This document shows positions 2,743 to 23,697 of a DNA stretch of 64,000 bases, in pieces. Positions within the stretch are counted from its first letter, which is position 1. Each line of letters opens with the position of its first letter. This stretch comes from Escherichia coli (GTDB lineage: Bacteria > Pseudomonadota > Gammaproteobacteria > Enterobacterales > Enterobacteriaceae). The translations under genes and the position numbers were made by a program. Under the pieces are notes generated by a model. The model worked only from the letters and a program-made list of their open reading frames with translations. It was not told the DNA's origin and did no database searches. The DNA is taken from assembly GCF_048403405.1 (NCBI RefSeq), contig NZ_CP183129.1. The stretch is one strand, 5' to 3'.

Positions 2743-5700
2743 CTATCCCCAATCCAGCCCTTGTGGCGAACTTGAAAATCCCGCCTCACGCAGCAGCGTA
2801 AACATCGGCGTTTGCCGGACCGGTAGATCATTCACTTCTGTTAGCGTAAAGCGCAGCCGTAGTTCGCGACGCAGTGCGGTGGTCAGCGCCTGGAAAATCT
2901 CTGGGGCGAGTAATTCATCTTTTTCCTGCCAGACCAGCATTTTTTTGCCGCCTTGCGCCAGATAGAGTAACAATTTGCCGCCAGAAACGACCACCAGCGC
3001 ACCCGCCCGACGCGTTGGAACCAGCGTTGCCGGATGTGCAGGCCAGGGCAGAAGATTTCCCCACACATTAGCCGGATCGTTGGCGGAGAGCGCCACTGGT
3101 GTATAGTGGCGCGTTTGCGTGGCTTGTGTCGCCAGATCGCGCAATCGGTCAATAGTCAGACGTTCAGCGAATTGCGCACCCCCCAGACCTTCTACAAAAC
3201 GACCTCGCATAATTCGCCCGGAGTCTTCCATACTTCGACAAAGCGTTTGCATCGATGGAAACCCGCCAGGGATATTTTCGGCTATCACCGCCTGACGACT
3301 GATGATGCCGTAGCGGTCGAGCATATTTTCCGCCAGCGCCAGCATCCTTTCGGTATCGTTTAGTGGCTCCACCTGCAATAACGACCAGCGTCCAGCAAGA
3401 TTTGGTGTGTTGTAAGATACCCGCGGCGAGACGGGTTGTGCATAGACAGGACGCCCACGACGAGCCCGGTGACTGCGGCGAGTCGAGGTGCGTGCGTTGG
3501 AACTGCTGCGGGTGAGGGCGCGTAACGGTGCCCAAATGTCGCTGGTAATGAGGCCTTGCCAGACCAGCGCCCATAACGCCTCTTGCAGAGCCGAGGGATC
3601 AACCGATTCGCCGATTTTATCGCGTATCCGTTGGCTGATTTGTTGTGCAAACCAGGCTCCTCCGTCAGCCAGAACAGCGATTATCGCTTGCTGCAGCGCC
3701 GAACGATTCGCCTGATCTGCTTCGGCGGGAGTGAACGATTCTGCGGCATATTCCTGTAGATGCAGTGCCACCAGACCGTCATCTTCACCCAGCTTTTTTT
3801 GCCCCGACCAGATAACCGCACCGGTAGCCAGATAACCGCACCGGTAGCCAGTAATTCATTGAGCATTTCTGGCGAATAGTCGCGTACGCGGGCAGGCAGG
3901 ATCTGGCTTTCCCAGAGTGAGGCGGGTAAACCGACTCCTGCAAGCTGTTCGATCACCCGCATCACGCCATCCACGCCCTCATAAACGCCTGGCGATGTTG
4001 AGGCAAAGAGTGCCGGGCTACCATCGGTGGCGGGTAATACGCCCTGACGTTCCAGCAGCAATCGCGCATAGGTCGTGGCCGCAACGGGACGTGTCGCTTC
4101 TCTGGCGGCTTGCAGCGAGCGCAAACGCAGACGACGAAATACTTCATCGCTCACCCAGATGTCTTGTTGCAGATTCATCACCAGCCCCTGTTCGCGCAGT
4201 TGCTGAAGTTGCTCTTCGACAATGGCAATACCGAGACTAAACTCATGAGCCAGTTGTTCAGACGTGACCAGAGCATGAGCCCGGAGATAGCGCAGAAAGA
4301 GGTCGCGAAGCGGGTAACTGACTCGGTGCAAATAAATCTCTGGCAGTGACTCTGGTAGTCGTACGCCGAGAGCATCGCGCAGCCTGGCGGCATCATCCAT
4401 ACAGGCAAGACGCTCCTGCCCGCTAATCATCGTCCGGAAGATTCGTTTTACTGCAAGAAGATTTTCCAGATACGACGCAATCTCTTCACTGCTGCCTGTA
4501 TGCCGTTGCACCAGGTCTTCAACGGTCATTGGCCCCAGTTCGCGCAGCAGGTCGAACAATCCTTCTTCACCTTTCGCTCTTCTGCCAGGAGCCAGTCGTT
4601 GCAACTCTTCTTCCACCTGGCGAATGACCTGCGGGTCGAGTAATTCCCCCGGATCGACCTGTCCGAGTAGATTGCGCAGTAACTCGCTGTCCAGCGACAG
4701 TACGGATGCCCGGCGCTCTGCCAGCGGGGCGTCGCTCTGGTACATAAATTCCGCGACATAGCCGAACAATAAACTAGCGGCGAAAGGCGAGGGCGTAGTG
4801 GTCGTTACATCGGATATTTGAATTTCGCCACCGTTCAGGCGACGCATCAAACGTTCCAGCGCGGGAAGATCATAAACATCTTGCAGACATTCGCGTAGGG
4901 TTTCGAGAATGACCGGAAAATCTGGATATCCCTGAGCGATTTCCAGCAACTGACTGGCGCGCAGCCGTTGTTGCCAGAGCGGGGTGCGATGGCCCGGCGT
5001 GCGGCCCGGCATTAATAATGCCCGCGCGGCGCATTCGCGAAAACGGGCGGCGAAAAGTGCCGAGCTGCCTACCGCCTCGCGGACAATTTGCAGCAACTTT
5101 TCTGGTTCAAACAAAAAAATCGCGGCATCGGGCAATTTACCATCGGTGTCAGGAATGCGCGCAACAATGCCGTCATCACTGGCAACCACAGACGCGTCAG
5201 CGCCCCATAGTGCATGTATTCGCCCGGCAATCGCCAGCGCCCAGGGTTCATGCACCCGTCTTCCATAGGGAGAGTGCAAAATAATACGCCAGTCACCAAT
5301 TTCATCACGGCACCGTTCGAGGACAAGATGACGACTACCTGGAACGATGCCCGTCGCGTTGCGCTGCTCGTCAATCAACCCCTGAATATTGGCGATCGTA
5401 TTTTCTTCTGCCAACCACGGGGGAATAGTCCCGGAAAAGAACGCGCCATCCGCCAGTAAATGGAGAAAATCGCCGATCATCTCGCCTAATTCTGCCGGAC
5501 GTCCGTTACCTTCACCACGCCAGAAGGGGAGCCGGGCAGAACGACCCGGAGCAGGAGTCACAATCACCTGATCGCGGGTGATTTGCTGGATCCGCCATGA
5601 GGTAGCGCCGAGAGTGATAATGTCGTTCACCCGCGACTCATATACCATCTCCTCATCCAGTTCACCCACCCGCCGCGAACCGGCCTGTTCTTCACCTTCG

Positions 5701-18459: not shown

Positions 18460-19116
18460 ATGTCTGATAACGACGAATTGCAGCAAATCGCGCATCTGCG
18501 CCGTGAATACACCAAAGGCGGATTACGCCGCCGCGATCTTCCCGCCGATCCATTAACCCTTTTTGAACGCTGGCTCTCTCAGGCGTGTGAAGCCAAACTG
18601 GCGGACCCTACCGCGATGGTGGTCGCTACCGTGGATGAACATGGTCAGCCTTATCAGCGCATCGTTTTACTCAAACATTACGACGAAAAAGGCATGGTGT
18701 TTTACACCAACCTCGGCAGCCGTAAAGCACATCAAATCGAAAATAATCCGCGCGTTAGCCTGCTGTTCCCGTGGCATACCCTTGAGCGCCAGGTGATGGT
18801 GATCGGTAAAGCGGAACGACTTTCGACTCTCGAAGTGATGAAATATTTTCATAGTCGCCCCCGTGATAGCCAGATTGGTGCATGGGTTTCGAAGCAGTCC
18901 AGTCGCATTTCTGCCCGCGGTATCCTTGAAAGTAAATTCCTGGAGCTGAAGCAGAAGTTTCAACAGGGCGAAGTGCCATTGCCGAGTTTTTGGGGCGGTT
19001 TTCGCGTCAGCCTTGAACAGATTGAGTTCTGGCAGGGCGGTGAGCATCGCCTGCATGACCGCTTTTTGTACCAGCGTGAAAATGATGCGTGGAAGATTGA
19101 TCGTCTTGCCCCCTGA
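18460..19116 (+). CDS. pdxH: Pyridoxine/pyridoxamine 5'-phosphate oxidase
   Basis: 218-aa ORF. Confidence 0.95.
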
Positions 19117-19244
19117 AAAGATGCAAAAATCTTGCTTTAATCGCTGGTACTCCTGATTCTGGCACTTTATTCTATGTCTCTTTCGCATCTGGCGAAAAGT
19201 CGTGTACCGGCAAAGGTGCAGTCGTTATATACATGGAGATTTTG

Positions 19245-20519
19245 ATGGCAAGCAGTAACTTGATTAAACAATTGCAAGAGCGGGGGCTGGTAGCCCAGGT
19301 GACGGACGAGGAAGCGTTAGCAGAGCGACTGGCGCAAGGCCCGATCGCGCTCTATTGCGGCTTCGATCCTACCGCTGACAGCTTGCATTTGGGGCATCTT
19401 GTTCCATTGTTATGCCTGAAACGCTTCCAGCAGGCGGGCCACAAGCCGGTTGCGCTGGTAGGCGGCGCGACGGGTCTGATTGGCGACCCGAGCTTCAAAG
19501 CTGCTGAGCGTAAGCTGAACACCGAAGAAACTGTTCAGGAATGGGTGGACAAAATCCGCAAGCAGGTTGCCCCGTTCCTCGATTTCGACTGTGGAGAAAA
19601 CTCTGCTATCGCGGCGAACAACTATGACTGGTTCGGCAATATGAATGTGCTGACCTTCCTGCGCGATATTGGCAAACACTTCTCCGTTAACCAGATGATC
19701 AACAAAGAAGCGGTTAAGCAGCGTCTCAACCGTGAAGATCAGGGGATTTCGTTCACTGAGTTTTCCTACAACCTGTTGCAGGGTTATGACTTCGCCTGTC
19801 TGAACAAACAGTACGGTGTGGTGCTGCAAATTGGTGGTTCTGACCAGTGGGGTAACATCACTTCTGGTATCGACCTGACCCGTCGTCTGCATCAGAATCA
19901 GGTGTTTGGCCTGACCGTTCCGCTGATCACCAAAGCAGACGGCACCAAATTTGGTAAAACTGAAGGCGGCGCAGTCTGGTTGGATCCGAAGAAAACCAGC
20001 CCGTACAAATTCTACCAGTTCTGGATCAACACTGCGGATGCCGACGTTTACCGCTTCCTGAAGTTCTTCACCTTTATGAGCATTGAAGAGATCAACGCCC
20101 TGGAAGAAGAAGATAAAAACAGTGGTAAAGCACCGCGCGCCCAGTATGTACTGGCGGAACAGGTGACACGTCTGGTGCATGGTGAAGAAGGTTTGCAGGC
20201 GGCAAAACGTATTACCGAATGCCTGTTCAGCGGTTCCTTGAGTGCGCTGAGTGAAGCGGACTTCGAACAGCTGGCGCAGGACGGCGTACCGATGGTTGAG
20301 ATGGAAAAAGGCGCAGACCTGATGCAGGCGCTGGTCGATTCTGAACTGCAACCTTCTCGTGGTCAGGCGCGTAAAACTATCGCTTCCAATGCCATCACCA
20401 TTAACGGTGAAAAACAGTCCGATCCTGAATACTTCTTTAAAGAAGAAGATCGTCTGTTTGGTCGTTTTACCTTACTGCGTCGCGGCAAAAAGAATTACTG
20501 TCTGATTTGCTGGAAATAA
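19245..20519 (+). CDS. tyrS: Tyrosyl-tRNA synthetase
   Basis: 424-aa product from the ATG at 19245; class I HIGH (HLGH) and KMSKS-like (KFGKT) motifs. Confidence 0.97.
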
Positions 20520-20534
20520 TGCATTAAGTGGAAA

Positions 20535-20567
20535 GGGGGAGTGAGAAATCACTCCCCCTGGTTTTTA
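20535..20567 (+). terminator. Rho-independent terminator GGGGGAGTGA-GAAA-TCACTCCCCC + TGGTTTTTAT after tyrS
   Basis: 10-bp GC-rich stem and T-run; ends 10 nt before the pdxY start. Confidence 0.6.
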
Positions 20568-20577
20568 TACAGGGAAC

Positions 20578-21441
20578 ATGATGAAAAATATTCTCGCTAT
20601 CCAGTCTCACGTTGTTTATGGTCATGCGGGTAACAGTGCGGCAGAGTTTCCGATGCGCCGCCTGGGCGCGAACGTCTGGCCGCTGAACACCGTTCAATTT
20701 TCTAATCACACCCAATACGGCAAATGGACTGGCTGCGTGATGCCGCCCAGCCATTTAACCGAAATTGTGCAAGGCATTGCCGCCATTGATAAATTACACA
20801 CCTGTGATGCCGTATTAAGTGGCTATCTGGGTTCGGCGGAGCAGGGTGAACATATTCTCGGTATCGTTCGTCAGGTGAAAGCAGCAAATCCGCAGGCGAA
20901 ATATTTTTGCGATCCGGTAATGGGTCATCCGGAAAAAGGCTGTATCGTTGCACCGGGTGTCGCAGAGTTTCATGTGCGTCACGGTTTGCCTGCCAGCGAT
21001 ATCATTGCGCCGAATCTGGTTGAGCTGGAGATACTCTGTGAGCATCCGGTAAATAACGTCGAAGAAGCGGTTCTGGCAGCGCGTGAACTCATTGCGCAAG
21101 GGCCACAAATTGTGTTGGTTAAACACCTGGCGCGGGCTGGCTACAGCCGTGACCGTTTTGAAATGCTGCTGGTTACCGCCGATGAAGCCTGGCATATCAG
21201 CCGTCCGCTGGTGGATTTTGGTATGCGCCAGCCGGTAGGTGTTGGTGATGTGACGAGCGGTTTACTGCTGGTGAAACTGCTTCAGGGGGCAACGCTGCAG
21301 GAGGCCCTGGAACATGTGACCGCTGCAGTATACGAAATCATGGTGACCACCAAAGCAATGCAGGAATATGAGCTGCAAGTGGTTGCTGCTCAGGATCGTA
21401 TTGCCAAACCAGAACATTATTTCAGCGCAACAAAGCTCTGA
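20578..21441 (+). CDS. pdxY: Pyridoxal kinase 2
   Basis: 287-aa ORF, ribokinase-like fold. Confidence 0.95.
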
Positions 21442-21453
21442 AATATCTCATTT

Positions 21454-21477
21454 CGGCCCACAACGACCTGTGGGCCG
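21454..21477. terminator. Bidirectional hairpin CGGCCCACA-ACGACC-TGTGGGCCG between convergent pdxY and gstA
   Basis: Perfect 9-bp stem. Confidence 0.55.
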
Positions 21478-21484
21478 ATGGCTA

Positions 21485-22090
21485 TTACTTTAAGCCTTCC
21501 GCTGACAGCGCGTCTTGTACTTCCGGACGTTCAGCCATACGTTGCATAAATGCCGCAATGTGCTCTAACCCTTCCAGATTCAGTTTCACCGCGTATGCCC
21601 AGCGCAGAACCGTAAACAGATAGGCATCAGCAATTGTAAATCGTTGCCCGCAGATCCAGTGCTCATCCTTCAGAGCATCGTTCACATATTGCAGCTTCTT
21701 CTCCAGCTGCGCGCGAACTGTTGGTTTGTACTCTTCCGGTGTATCAGGGCGAAACAGAGGTGTGAAGCCTTTATGCAGCTCGGTGGCGATGTAATTCAGC
21801 CATTCGATGGTTTTATAGCGGGAAATACTGTTTACCGGTGCCAGCAACTGGCGGTCGGGGACGCTGTCGGCAAGATACTGCATAATTGCTACGCCTTCCG
21901 TCAGCAAAGTACCATCGTCCAGCAGCAATGCAGGCACCTGTCCCTTAGGGTTAACGGCAAAGTAATCGTCACCGTTTTCGAGACGTTTTTTCATTAAATC
22001 CACACTGACGAGCGTAAAATCCTTTCCGCTCTCACGCAGGGTGATATGGGAAGCGAGAGAGCAGGCACCCGGTTTGTAGAACAATTTCAT
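21485..22090 (-). CDS. gstA: Glutathione S-transferase
   Basis: 201-aa ORF. Confidence 0.93.
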
Positions 22091-22138
22091 CGGTAACTCC
22101 TTTTGTCTGTGGTTTAAAGTATGGTAGTGCGTTGCTGA

Positions 22139-22173
22139 ACAAAAAAAAGCCGCTAACGAAAAGTTAGCGGCTT
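22139..22173 (-). terminator. Rho-independent terminator of dtpA (stem AAGCCGCTAAC / GTTAGCGGCTT + U8)
   Basis: 11-bp stem; A8 run on plus strand equals U-run on the minus transcript. Confidence 0.75.
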
Positions 22174-22194
22174 GTAAAAGAGTTTCCCTGAATT

Positions 22195-23697
22195 TTACGC
22201 TACAGCAGCTTTCGCCGCTTTGTCTGCAGCGTCATCCTGCGTCATGCGGTGCAGTTTCGGCGCGGTCAGCAGCATCAGAACTGCAATAACGGCAGTAGCG
22301 ACACCAATCTGCAAGAATACGCGACCATAGACTTCCAGTGACATCAGCGGATCGGTAACGTTATCCGGCACAGCCATCATACCCGCAACATAACCACCAA
22401 TCAGGTTTGCACCGGCAGTGGTCAGGAACCAGCTACCCATAATGAAGCCCATCAGACGCTGCGGAACGAGTTGTGGGACCATTGCCAGACCCAGACCAGA
22501 GATCATCAGTTCCCCGATACTCTGCAGGCCATAGCTCGCGACCAGCCAGCTTACAGACACGATACCAGCGTCAGACGCGAATTTCGCACCCAGCGGCAGA
22601 ATCAGGAACGCACCAGAACACATCACCATGCCGATTGCAAACTTGGTTGGCATCGGCAGGGTATCGCCCATCTTGTTATAGATAGCGGCCAGAATCGGAC
22701 TACCGATGATGATCCAGAACGGGTTCAGTGCCTGATACTGCTCAGGTTCTACGGCCAGACCCAGAATGGAGTGCTCAACGTTACGAATCGCAAAGAAGTT
22801 CAGTGACGTTGGCATCTGGCTGTACAGCACGAAGAAGATAATGGCTTCGAGCATCAGGATGAAGGCAACGATCATTTTACGACGCGCAGCACCTTTCATC
22901 GCGAAGGCTTCTTTACCGAAGATAACCACAATACCGAAGGCAACAACGCCCAGCGCCATACGCGCAACTTCCTGATTGTGCAGCAGCCAGGTGGCGATAG
23001 CGATCAGTGCCACAACACCAATAATGGTCAGCAGCAGGTTACGGTAGTTGATAGGCTCGAAGTCTGGTTTTGAACCGTACTGTTTAACCCAGCGTTGGCA
23101 GAAGGCGAAGTTAACGATAGTGATCAGCAGGCCTACAACGCTCAACGCAAACGCAACACTCCAGCCGTATTTCGCGGCCAGCCACGGGGTGGCGATCATA
23201 GAGAAGAAAGAGCCGATGTTGACGGACATGTAGTACATGGTGAATGCACCGTCCAGACGCGGGTCGTTTTTCTCATAGCATGTAGAAAGCAGAGAAGACG
23301 GGTTAGCTTTAAACAGGCCGTTACCGACCGCAATAGCCGCCATACCCATATAAACGATACCGGCGTCGTGACCAGACCAGGCAACCAGAGCATAACCAAT
23401 CGCCAGCACAATAGCGCCAAGCATAATTACGCGTTTAGTACCCAGTACCTTGTCACCTAACCAGCCGCCGATAGCGACCAGACCATAAACCAGGGCACTA
23501 AAGGAAGAGAAAAGGGTGATTGAATCCGCTTCAGACATACCCAGTTGTTTAACCAGGTAAACAGCCATAATTCCTTGTAGGCCGTAATAACCAAAACGTT
23601 CCCATAACTCAATCGAGAAGATGAGATAGAACGCCTTCGGTTGTTTGAAAGCGTTCAAACTGACGCTTTCAGTTGGTTTTTGGTTTGCAGTGGACAC
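22195..23697 (-). CDS. dtpA: Proton-dependent di/tripeptide permease (POT family), GTG start
   Basis: 500-aa ORF; SD AGAGG upstream. Confidence 0.93.

What the first reader, a model, noticed from the sequence alone, without database searches (positions are those of the whole stretch)
20520..20577. Strong terminator hairpin wedged between tyrS and pdxY
A 10-bp GC-rich stem (GGGGGAGTGA / TCACTCCCCC) plus TGGTTTTTAT ends only 10 nt before the pdxY ATG. pdxY is thought to be co-transcribed with tyrS, so this looks like a partial terminator or attenuator that would set pdxY levels well below tyrS. Whether the hairpin also sequesters the pdxY ribosome-binding site is not obvious from sequence.
Basis: partly seen in the sequence, partly recalled or inferred. 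Interest (0 to 1): 0.25.

Follow-up and report, generated by a model that had tools for sequence, protein, structure and literature searches.

The report
Known leaky terminator between tyrS and pdxY
The hairpin is real and is the already-described partial transcription terminator that ends most E. coli tyrS messages and lets a minority run on into pdxY; it is conserved across enteric bacteria and does not hide the pdxY ribosome-binding site.

Summary
The window is E. coli. The 58-nt tyrS-pdxY spacer (20520-20577) holds an 11-bp hairpin (20534-20559, GAAA loop, about -21 to -23 kcal/mol, z = -4.2) followed by GGUUUUUAUA. Published Term-seq on MG1655 (Adams et al. 2021) places a strong RNA 3' end at window 20563, inside the U-run. 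That end is classed as the primary tyrS 3' end, and no Rho-termination region is listed there. In 79 other Enterobacteriaceae loci, tyrS is directly followed by a GC hairpin, a T-run and then pdxY. The stem covaries (95% paired, 6 of 10 pairs with compensatory double changes), and a few genera carry an unrelated hairpin in the same place. This points to selection on structure rather than sequence, so the element is a generic intrinsic terminator. The pdxY Shine-Dalgarno (20571-20575) lies outside the hairpin, and I found no antiterminator alternative. As I recall that paper (it was not readable here), it reported complete co-transcription with about 92% termination at this attenuator. Already known; low interest. 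Minor additions: Escherichia has an unusually weak U-tract, and the conserved pdxY start is the second ATG (20581).

The parts
18460..19116 (+). pdxH CDS, first gene of the complex pdxH-tyrS-pdxY operon
   Evidence: ORF. K-12 annotation b1638, mapped with window = 1736467 - K-12 coordinate.
19245..20519 (+). tyrS CDS (tyrosine--tRNA ligase), the gene whose transcripts mostly end at the hairpin
   Evidence: The K-12 annotated start corresponds to 19245 (MASSNLIK...). The ORF list starts 12 nt earlier, at an in-frame ATG.
20520..20577 (+). tyrS-pdxY intercistronic spacer (58 nt)
20534..20544 (+). 5' arm of the terminator hairpin (AGGGGGAGUGA)
   Evidence: pair probability 0.91-1.0. Covariation.
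20545..20548 (+). GAAA tetraloop
   Evidence: GAAA is retained in almost all orthologues with this hairpin type.
20549..20559 (+). 3' arm of the terminator hairpin (UCACUCCCCCU)
20560..20569 (+). U-rich tail GGUUUUUAUA. The U5 run is 20562-20566, separated from the stem by GG.
   Evidence: The tail score is second lowest of 80 loci.
20563..20563 (+). Mapped in vivo RNA 3' end (K-12 1715904, minus strand)
   Evidence: Adams et al. 2021 Supplementary file 1, LB OD 0.4. Coordinate conversion through.
20571..20575 (+). Likely pdxY Shine-Dalgarno (AGGGA), outside the hairpin
   Evidence: Read directly. Pairing probabilities are only 0.4-0.6, with weak partners.
20578..21441 (+). pdxY CDS (pyridoxal kinase 2) as annotated. 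The start codon conserved across genera is the second ATG, at 20581.

Best explanation
This is a constitutive, incompletely efficient intrinsic (Rho-independent) terminator inside the pdxH-tyrS-pdxY operon. As RNA polymerase transcribes past the tyrS stop codon, the nascent RNA folds into an 11-bp GC-rich GAAA-loop hairpin (20534-20559). Together with the following U-run, this releases most transcripts at about 20563-20568. The released pdxH-tyrS and tyrS mRNAs carry a 3' hairpin that protects them from exonucleases. A minority of polymerases read through, and that read-through is the source of pdxY mRNA. The salvage kinase PdxY is therefore made at a fixed, small fraction of the abundant, essential TyrS. 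Shown here: the structure, its statistical significance, the in vivo 3' end, conservation and covariation across genera, the absence of an alternative fold, and the RBS lying outside the stem. Inferred or recalled: that termination is partial (about 92%, from memory of Yang et al. 1998), that read-through is the only source of pdxY mRNA, and that the GG-interrupted U-tract is what makes the E. coli version leaky.
For: The hairpin and T-run are present and far beyond chance. The hairpin forms with probability about 1.0 in long context, with no competing pairing of either arm. Term-seq puts a 3' end at window 20563 in the U-run, with 41,205 reads, classed as the primary tyrS end. No coordinate in K-12 1715700-1716099, which spans the hairpin, appears in the bicyclomycin-based list of Rho termination regions, and neither tyrS nor pdxY is named there. 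79 of 79 usable Enterobacteriaceae loci have tyrS, then a GC hairpin, then a T-run, then pdxY, with spacers of 52-87 nt (one of 205 nt). In the 10-bp helix, 95.3% of cells are paired and 6 pairs have changes on both sides. There are 59 double-change cells against 16.9 in shuffles (0 of 500 shuffles reach this), and the slid controls reach 42-66%. Cedecea-type loci carry an unrelated hairpin plus T8 at the same place, so what is conserved is structure plus U-run. No sigma-70-like promoter was found on the + strand between the pdxH promoter region and pdxY. The junction is at least 99% identical in 5,282 of 5,425 E. coli genomes. Held papers describe the pdxH-tyrS-pdxY operon and prior study of tyrS termination.
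Against: The fraction that reads through could not be checked here. The primary paper is not held, and no held dataset gave transcript or protein ratios across the junction. The mapped 3' end is only 4 nt past the stem rather than the usual 7-9 nt, so some 3' trimming or a processing contribution is likely. The 3' end appears in only one of the three Term-seq condition lists. The promoter scan is a crude consensus search and cannot exclude a weak or non-sigma-70 promoter inside tyrS. By a classical terminator discriminant (formula recalled from memory) the E. coli site scores only about 3.5, against a median of about 41 in other genera. That fits leakiness, but it also shows that sequence-based strength estimates are uncertain.
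Confidence: 0.88

Rival explanations
1. This is a complete terminator that ends the tyrS unit. pdxY is expressed independently, from a promoter of its own inside the 3' part of tyrS or overlapping the spacer.
For: The hairpin is very stable. In most other genera the T-run is long and directly abuts the stem, which predicts efficient termination. The consensus scan cannot exclude weak promoters.
Against: No promoter-like site was found on the + strand in tyrS or the spacer. Only 18 nt separate the stem from the annotated ATG, which leaves no room for a promoter downstream of the terminator. Any transcript starting inside tyrS would still have to pass through the hairpin. Held papers treat pdxH-tyrS-pdxY as one operon. 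As I recall Yang et al. 1998, pdxY was completely co-transcribed with tyrS.
Confidence: 0.05
2. This is a regulated attenuator: read-through is switched by a signal (B6 vitamers, tyrosine or tRNA-Tyr charging, or the position of the ribosome terminating tyrS translation) through an alternative antiterminator fold or a bound factor.
For: The tyrS stop codon lies only 14 nt before the stem in E. coli, and as little as 6-9 nt in some genera. A terminating ribosome could therefore sit next to the base of the hairpin. The G-run, C-run and GAAA loop are more conserved than pairing alone requires.
Against: Both arms pair with each other at probability about 1.0, and no competing helix appears in 141-nt or 241-nt contexts. 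The spacer is too short for an aptamer, and nothing matches Rfam. In Cedecea-type genomes the hairpin is replaced by an unrelated sequence, and in L057 a roughly 145-nt element separates it from the tyrS stop codon. Both argue against a sequence-specific ligand or a fixed ribosome-to-hairpin distance.
Confidence: 0.04
3. This is mainly a post-transcriptional element. In one version, the hairpin is a barrier at which 3'-5' exonucleases stop after termination or cleavage further downstream. In the other, it is a translational operator that occludes the pdxY ribosome-binding site.
For: The mapped 3' end is only 4 nt past the stem, which is typical of exonuclease trimming back to a hairpin. In read-through RNA the U-run can pair weakly with AUGAAAA at the pdxY start (probability about 0.45).
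Against: A T-run follows the hairpin in essentially all 79 orthologous spacers, even where the hairpin sequence has been replaced. A pure exonuclease barrier would not need one. The Shine-Dalgarno is outside the stem. The unpaired probability of the RBS is about 0.5 and varies without pattern across 76 orthologues, so no conserved occlusion exists.
Confidence: 0.03

Closest known systems
The tyrS-pdxY intercistronic attenuator of E. coli K-12 (Yang, Tsui, Man & Winkler 1998, J Bacteriol 180:1814; operon background in Lam & Winkler 1992, J Bacteriol 174:6033)
   Same: It is the same locus and the same element. The 61 nt around the K-12 3' end are identical to the window. The conclusion is also the same: co-transcription with most transcripts ending in the spacer. 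The quantitative statement is recalled from memory. Held papers confirm only that the operon and tyrS termination were studied there.
   Different: Nothing of substance. This analysis adds the nucleotide-resolution 3' end from later Term-seq, cross-genus covariation, and the comparison of U-tract strength.
Canonical intrinsic (Rho-independent) terminators of E. coli
   Same: A GC-rich stem of 11 bp, a stable GNRA tetraloop, a 3' U-run, position just after a stop codon, and an RNA 3' end in the U-run.
   Different: The U-tract is short and is separated from the stem by GG (5 U in the first 8 nt). A coding gene starts 18 nt downstream on the same strand, so the element sits inside an operon rather than at its end.
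Other intra-operon partial terminators that set gene-dosage ratios, such as the rplL-rpoB attenuator of the rplKAJL-rpoBC cluster and the terminator between rpsU and dnaG in the rpsU-dnaG-rpoD operon (established knowledge, not tested here)
   Same: A constitutive hairpin terminator between a highly expressed upstream gene and a weakly expressed downstream gene of the same transcription unit.
   Different: The genes and sequences are different and there is no homology. This is a resemblance of mechanism only.

Membership tests
Intrinsic (Rho-independent) terminator | GC-rich stem-loop in the nascent RNA (stem about 5-14 bp, loop 3-8 nt) | tested here: met
   11-bp stem with 7 G-C pairs and a GAAA loop. 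Core hairpin -20 to -21.6 kcal/mol, whole spacer -23.5 kcal/mol, z = -4.18.
Intrinsic (Rho-independent) terminator | U-rich tract immediately 3' of the stem | tested here: met
   GGUUUUUAUA has 5 U in the first 8 nt and passes the scan. It is weak: the two stem-proximal positions are G, and the tail score is second lowest of 80 loci.
Intrinsic (Rho-independent) terminator | RNA 3' end in vivo within or at the U-tract | tested here: met
   The Term-seq 3' end at K-12 1715904(-) equals window 20563, the second U of the run. This is published data, not my own experiment.
Intrinsic (Rho-independent) terminator | Independence from Rho factor | tested here: inconclusive
   No coordinate in K-12 1715700-1716099 and no tyrS or pdxY entry appears in the bicyclomycin-derived Rho-region list of Adams et al.. 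That is absence from a list. No Rho score was reported for this position.
Intrinsic (Rho-independent) terminator | Termination by purified RNA polymerase in vitro | not testable with these tools
   Requires a single-round in vitro transcription assay.
Intrinsic (Rho-independent) terminator | Structure, rather than sequence, maintained in evolution | tested here: met
   95.3% of cells are paired and 6 of 10 pairs have compensatory changes, above both the shuffle and slide controls. Cedecea-type genomes carry a non-homologous replacement hairpin plus T8.
Regulated transcription attenuator (leader-peptide, riboswitch, T-box or protein-mediated) | Mutually exclusive antiterminator structure or a sensor domain upstream of the terminator | tested here: not met
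   Both hairpin arms pair with each other at probability about 1.0 and no alternative helix appears. Only 14 nt lie between the stop codon and the stem. There is no Rfam match.
Regulated transcription attenuator (leader-peptide, riboswitch, T-box or protein-mediated) | Read-through fraction changes with a physiological signal | not testable with these tools
   Needs fusions or RNA quantification under different conditions.
RBS-sequestering translational hairpin | Shine-Dalgarno and/or start codon base-paired within the stable stem | tested here: not met
   The SD (20571-20575) and both ATGs (20578, 20581) lie 3' of the stem and U-run. Only weak AU pairing with the U-run is seen (probability about 0.45), and accessibility shows no conserved pattern in 76 orthologues.
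Repeated extragenic elements (REP/BIME and similar) | Multiple copies per genome | tested here: not met
   The 91-nt junction has a median of one place per E. coli genome.

The most novel reading that the evidence does not exclude
The leakiness of this terminator may be an evolutionarily tuned quantity. Escherichia combines the longest G5/C5 stem with an unusually poor, GG-interrupted U-tract. Citrobacter, Enterobacter and Klebsiella have uninterrupted T-runs that predict much tighter termination. If so, the TyrS:PdxY ratio, and hence pyridoxal salvage capacity, would differ systematically between enteric genera, or read-through would be modulated by the ribosome terminating 14 nt upstream.
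Probability: 0.1. Interest if true: 0.3.

Novelty: already known. Interest (0 to 1): 0.08.

Why it matters
It matters little beyond annotation. The element explains how one transcription unit delivers a lot of an essential aminoacyl-tRNA synthetase and little of a vitamin-B6 salvage kinase, and this was worked out experimentally in 1998. There are practical consequences. Deletions or insertions in tyrS, or in the spacer, will be polar on pdxY. The hairpin should be kept when tyrS is moved as a cassette. Genome annotations could mark the terminator and reconsider the pdxY start codon.

Tried and rejected
(1) I tried to read the primary papers: Yang et al. 1998 (PMID 9537380 / PMC107095), Lam & Winkler 1992 (PMC207668) and the EcoSal Plus B6 review (PMC8995791). 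None is held. Full-text searches for the key phrases found no paper quoting the termination percentage.

(2) I looked for quantitative read-through or abundance data. Dar & Sorek 2018 and Conway 2014 have no held supplements. SMRT-Cappable-seq supplements do not mention either gene. Li 2014, Lalanne 2018, Thomason 2015 and Ju 2019 are not held. The Mori 2021 proteome tables gave only regression coefficients for PdxY.

(3) An Rfam scan of 19000-22300 at a permissive E-value found nothing at the hairpin.

(4) RBS sequestration is rejected: the SD is outside the stem and accessibility shows no conserved pattern.

(5) A repeat-element origin is rejected: the junction is single copy per genome.

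(6) A terminator for the opposite strand is rejected: the minus-strand tail is TTCCACTTAA, with no T-run and no convergent gene.

(7) An antiterminator alternative is rejected.

Full report
**What is in the sequence**

The window is Escherichia coli. A 501-nt slice around the finding matches 5,425 of 5,426 complete E. coli genomes at 95-100% identity and lies over tyrS and pdxY. The local gene order on the + strand is anmK, mliC, pdxH (18460-19116), tyrS (19245-20519) and pdxY (20578-21441), with gstA and dtpA convergent on the - strand. Window position w corresponds to MG1655 coordinate 1736467 - w.

The finding's coordinates, 20520-20577, are exactly the 58-nt tyrS-pdxY spacer. It reads UGCAUUAAGUGGAA-AGGGGGAGUGA-GAAA-UCACUCCCCCU-GGUUUUUAUA-CAGGGAAC, followed by AUGAUG. 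The quoted 10-nt arms are perfectly complementary, and an A-U pair extends the stem to 11 bp (20534-20559).

**Is it more than chance?**

- The spacer folds to -23.5 kcal/mol, against -12.9 +/- 2.5 for dinucleotide-preserving shuffles (z = -4.18, 0 of 200 as stable).
- In 141-nt and 241-nt contexts the hairpin persists, with pair probabilities of 0.91-1.0.
- The terminator scan picks it as the top hit of the region.
- Perfect GC-rich stems of at least 10 bp occur at 11 places in the window, against 0.13 expected in Markov resamples.

**Experimental 3' end**

Supplementary file 1 of Adams et al. 2021 (eLife 10:e62438, PMC7815308; Term-seq of MG1655, LB, OD600 about 0.4) lists a 3' end at 1715904 on the minus strand. 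It has 41,205 mean reads and is classed 'primary, tyrS'. The flanking sequence is identical to the window.

The listed sequences are 61 nt long. The SgrS row shows that position 51 is the 3' end. This agrees with the coordinate conversion: 1715904 equals window 20563, the second U of the U5 run. That is 4 nt past the stem, closer than the 7-9 nt usual for intrinsic termination, so some 3' trimming is likely (inference).

No coordinate in K-12 1715700-1716099 or 1714900-1715499 appears in their list of bicyclomycin-sensitive Rho termination regions, and neither tyrS nor pdxY is named there. I did not query the block between those ranges, which lies inside pdxY. The tyrS end appears in only one of the three condition lists.

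**Comparative evidence**

A scan of one genome per species with PdxY returned 80 Enterobacteriaceae loci. The genera include Escherichia, Salmonella, Citrobacter, Enterobacter, Klebsiella, Raoultella, Kosakonia, Kluyvera, Leclercia, Lelliottia, Yokenella, Cedecea and Buttiauxella.

- In all 79 loci long enough to judge, tyrS lies directly upstream. The spacers are 52-87 nt, with one of 205 nt.
- Every spacer contains a GC-rich hairpin followed by a T-run.
- The stems fall into types. Escherichia, Salmonella and Kosakonia have GGGAGUGA-GAAA-UCACUCCC. Citrobacter, Enterobacter, Klebsiella and Kluyvera have GGGGCGUGG-GAAA-CCACGCCCC. Variants include CAUGG/CCAUG, CGCGG/CCGCG and AGCGA/UCGCU.
- On an alignment of 63 distinct sequences, the 10-bp helix is 95.3% paired and 6 pairs have changes on both sides. 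There are 59 double-change cells against 16.9 +/- 3.3 in shuffles (0 of 500 shuffles reach this). Sliding the partner by 1-3 columns drops pairing to 42-66%.
- Four Cedecea-type loci have an unrelated hairpin (GCACGGC-UUAU-GCCGUGC) plus U8 in the same place. Two Buttiauxella-type loci have a longer loop.
- In L057 a roughly 145-nt element bounded by 18-nt inverted repeats sits between the tyrS stop codon and the hairpin.

What is maintained is therefore a stable hairpin plus a U-run just upstream of pdxY, not a particular sequence. That is the signature of a generic intrinsic terminator, not of a ligand- or protein-specific operator. Within E. coli the 91-nt junction is at least 99% identical in 5,282 of 5,425 genomes and is single copy.

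**Is it a switch, and does it hide the RBS?**

- Neither arm has any competing partner.
- Only 14 nt separate the stop codon from the stem.
- Nothing matches Rfam.
- The likely Shine-Dalgarno AGGGA (20571-20575) and both ATGs lie 3' of the stem and the U-run.
- The only interaction involving terminator sequence is weak AU pairing of the U-run with AUGAAAA at the start of pdxY (probability about 0.45).
- Across 76 distinct orthologous junctions, the unpaired probability of the RBS is about 0.5 and varies without pattern.

**Partial or complete?**

No sigma-70-like promoter was found on the + strand between the pdxH promoter region and pdxY. The 18 nt between the stem and the ATG cannot hold one. 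Held papers call the unit the pdxH-tyrS-pdxY operon, citing Lam & Winkler 1992 and Yang et al. 1998. [quoted passage not shown]

From my own memory of the Yang et al. 1998 abstract, pdxY is completely co-transcribed with tyrS, and about 92% of tyrS transcripts terminate at a putative Rho-factor-independent attenuator in the tyrS-pdxY intercistronic region. I could not open that paper, and I found no held dataset that quantifies the ratio. The figure therefore rests on recall.

The sequence itself fits leakiness. The E. coli U-tract is interrupted by GG next to the stem. A d'Aubenton-Carafa-type tail score (formula recalled from memory) is 2.2, the second lowest of 80 loci, against a median of 3.97 elsewhere.

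**Verdict**

It is also the textbook description of this locus, so the finding is a rediscovery: an already known intra-operon partial intrinsic terminator. Its mechanism resembles other dosage-setting internal terminators such as rplL-rpoB and rpsU-dnaG (established knowledge, not tested here).

The small additions from this analysis are:

- the nucleotide-level 3' end, cross-referenced to the window;
- formal covariation across genera, including hairpin replacement;
- the negative answer on RBS occlusion;
- the comparatively weak Escherichia U-tract;
- the observation that the conserved pdxY start is the second ATG.

Noticed in passing
window 20578-20583: pdxY is annotated from the first of two adjacent ATGs (MMKN...). 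Only the second ATG (20581) is conserved across genera: most have AAA/AAG-ATG, and Escherichia whittamii has ACG-ATG. The AGGGA Shine-Dalgarno is 5 nt from the second ATG but only 2 nt from the first, so the real start is probably 20581.
   Followed up: partly
L082 (NZ_CM136177.1) 3063-3785; corresponds to window ~20566/20567: In one human faecal E. coli genome an IS200C element (tnpA at L082 3206-3664) is inserted directly after the terminator T-run, between the hairpin and pdxY. pdxY is thereby separated from its only known source of transcription.
   Followed up: partly
L057 2296-2445: Enterobacter sp. BIGb0383 has a roughly 145-nt insert between the tyrS stop codon and the terminator. It is bounded by 18-nt inverted repeats (2300-2317 / 2426-2443, 89% complementary) and looks like a miniature inverted-repeat element. 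The terminator stays adjacent to pdxY.
   Followed up: partly
window 18517-18536: Adams et al. Term-seq also lists an ORF-internal 3' end in pdxH (K-12 1717931(-) = window 18536, 26,039 reads). It lies 4 nt after a small hairpin, GGCGG-AUUACG-CCGCC, with no U-run, about 77 nt into the pdxH ORF. It could be a processing product or a premature 3' end of unknown significance.
   Followed up: no
window 21453-21478: The 43-nt convergent spacer between pdxY and gstA holds a perfect 10-bp GC-rich hairpin (TCGGCCCACA...TGTGGGCCGA) with no T-run on either strand. The Adams et al. lists contain no entry naming pdxY, so where read-through pdxY transcripts end is not evident.
   Followed up: no
L074, L075, L077, L078 (spacer upstream of pdxY) and L080, L081: Cedecea-type genomes have replaced the tyrS terminator hairpin with an unrelated one (GCACGGC-UUAU-GCCGUGC plus U8). 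Buttiauxella-type genomes have the usual stem with a 6-7-nt loop. This is an example of terminator turnover at a fixed position.
   Followed up: partly
window 20560-20569 versus L007-L081: All five Escherichia-clade loci separate the T-run from the stem by G(G/A) (UGGUUUUU / UGAUUUUU). Nearly all other genera start the T-run at the stem. Escherichia tail scores are 2.2-3.0, against a median of 3.97 elsewhere.
   Followed up: partly
window 22140-22224 (- strand): The dtpA terminator (stem 22147-22173, followed by T7 on the - strand) gives sub-threshold Rfam hits to sroB (31.5 bits, E = 0.18) and osmY RNA (E = 0.35). This is probably just terminator-like resemblance.
   Followed up: no
window 19233-19247: The mechanical ORF for tyrS begins at an in-frame ATG 12 nt upstream (MEILMASS...) of the annotated K-12 start (MASS..., window 19245).
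   Followed up: no
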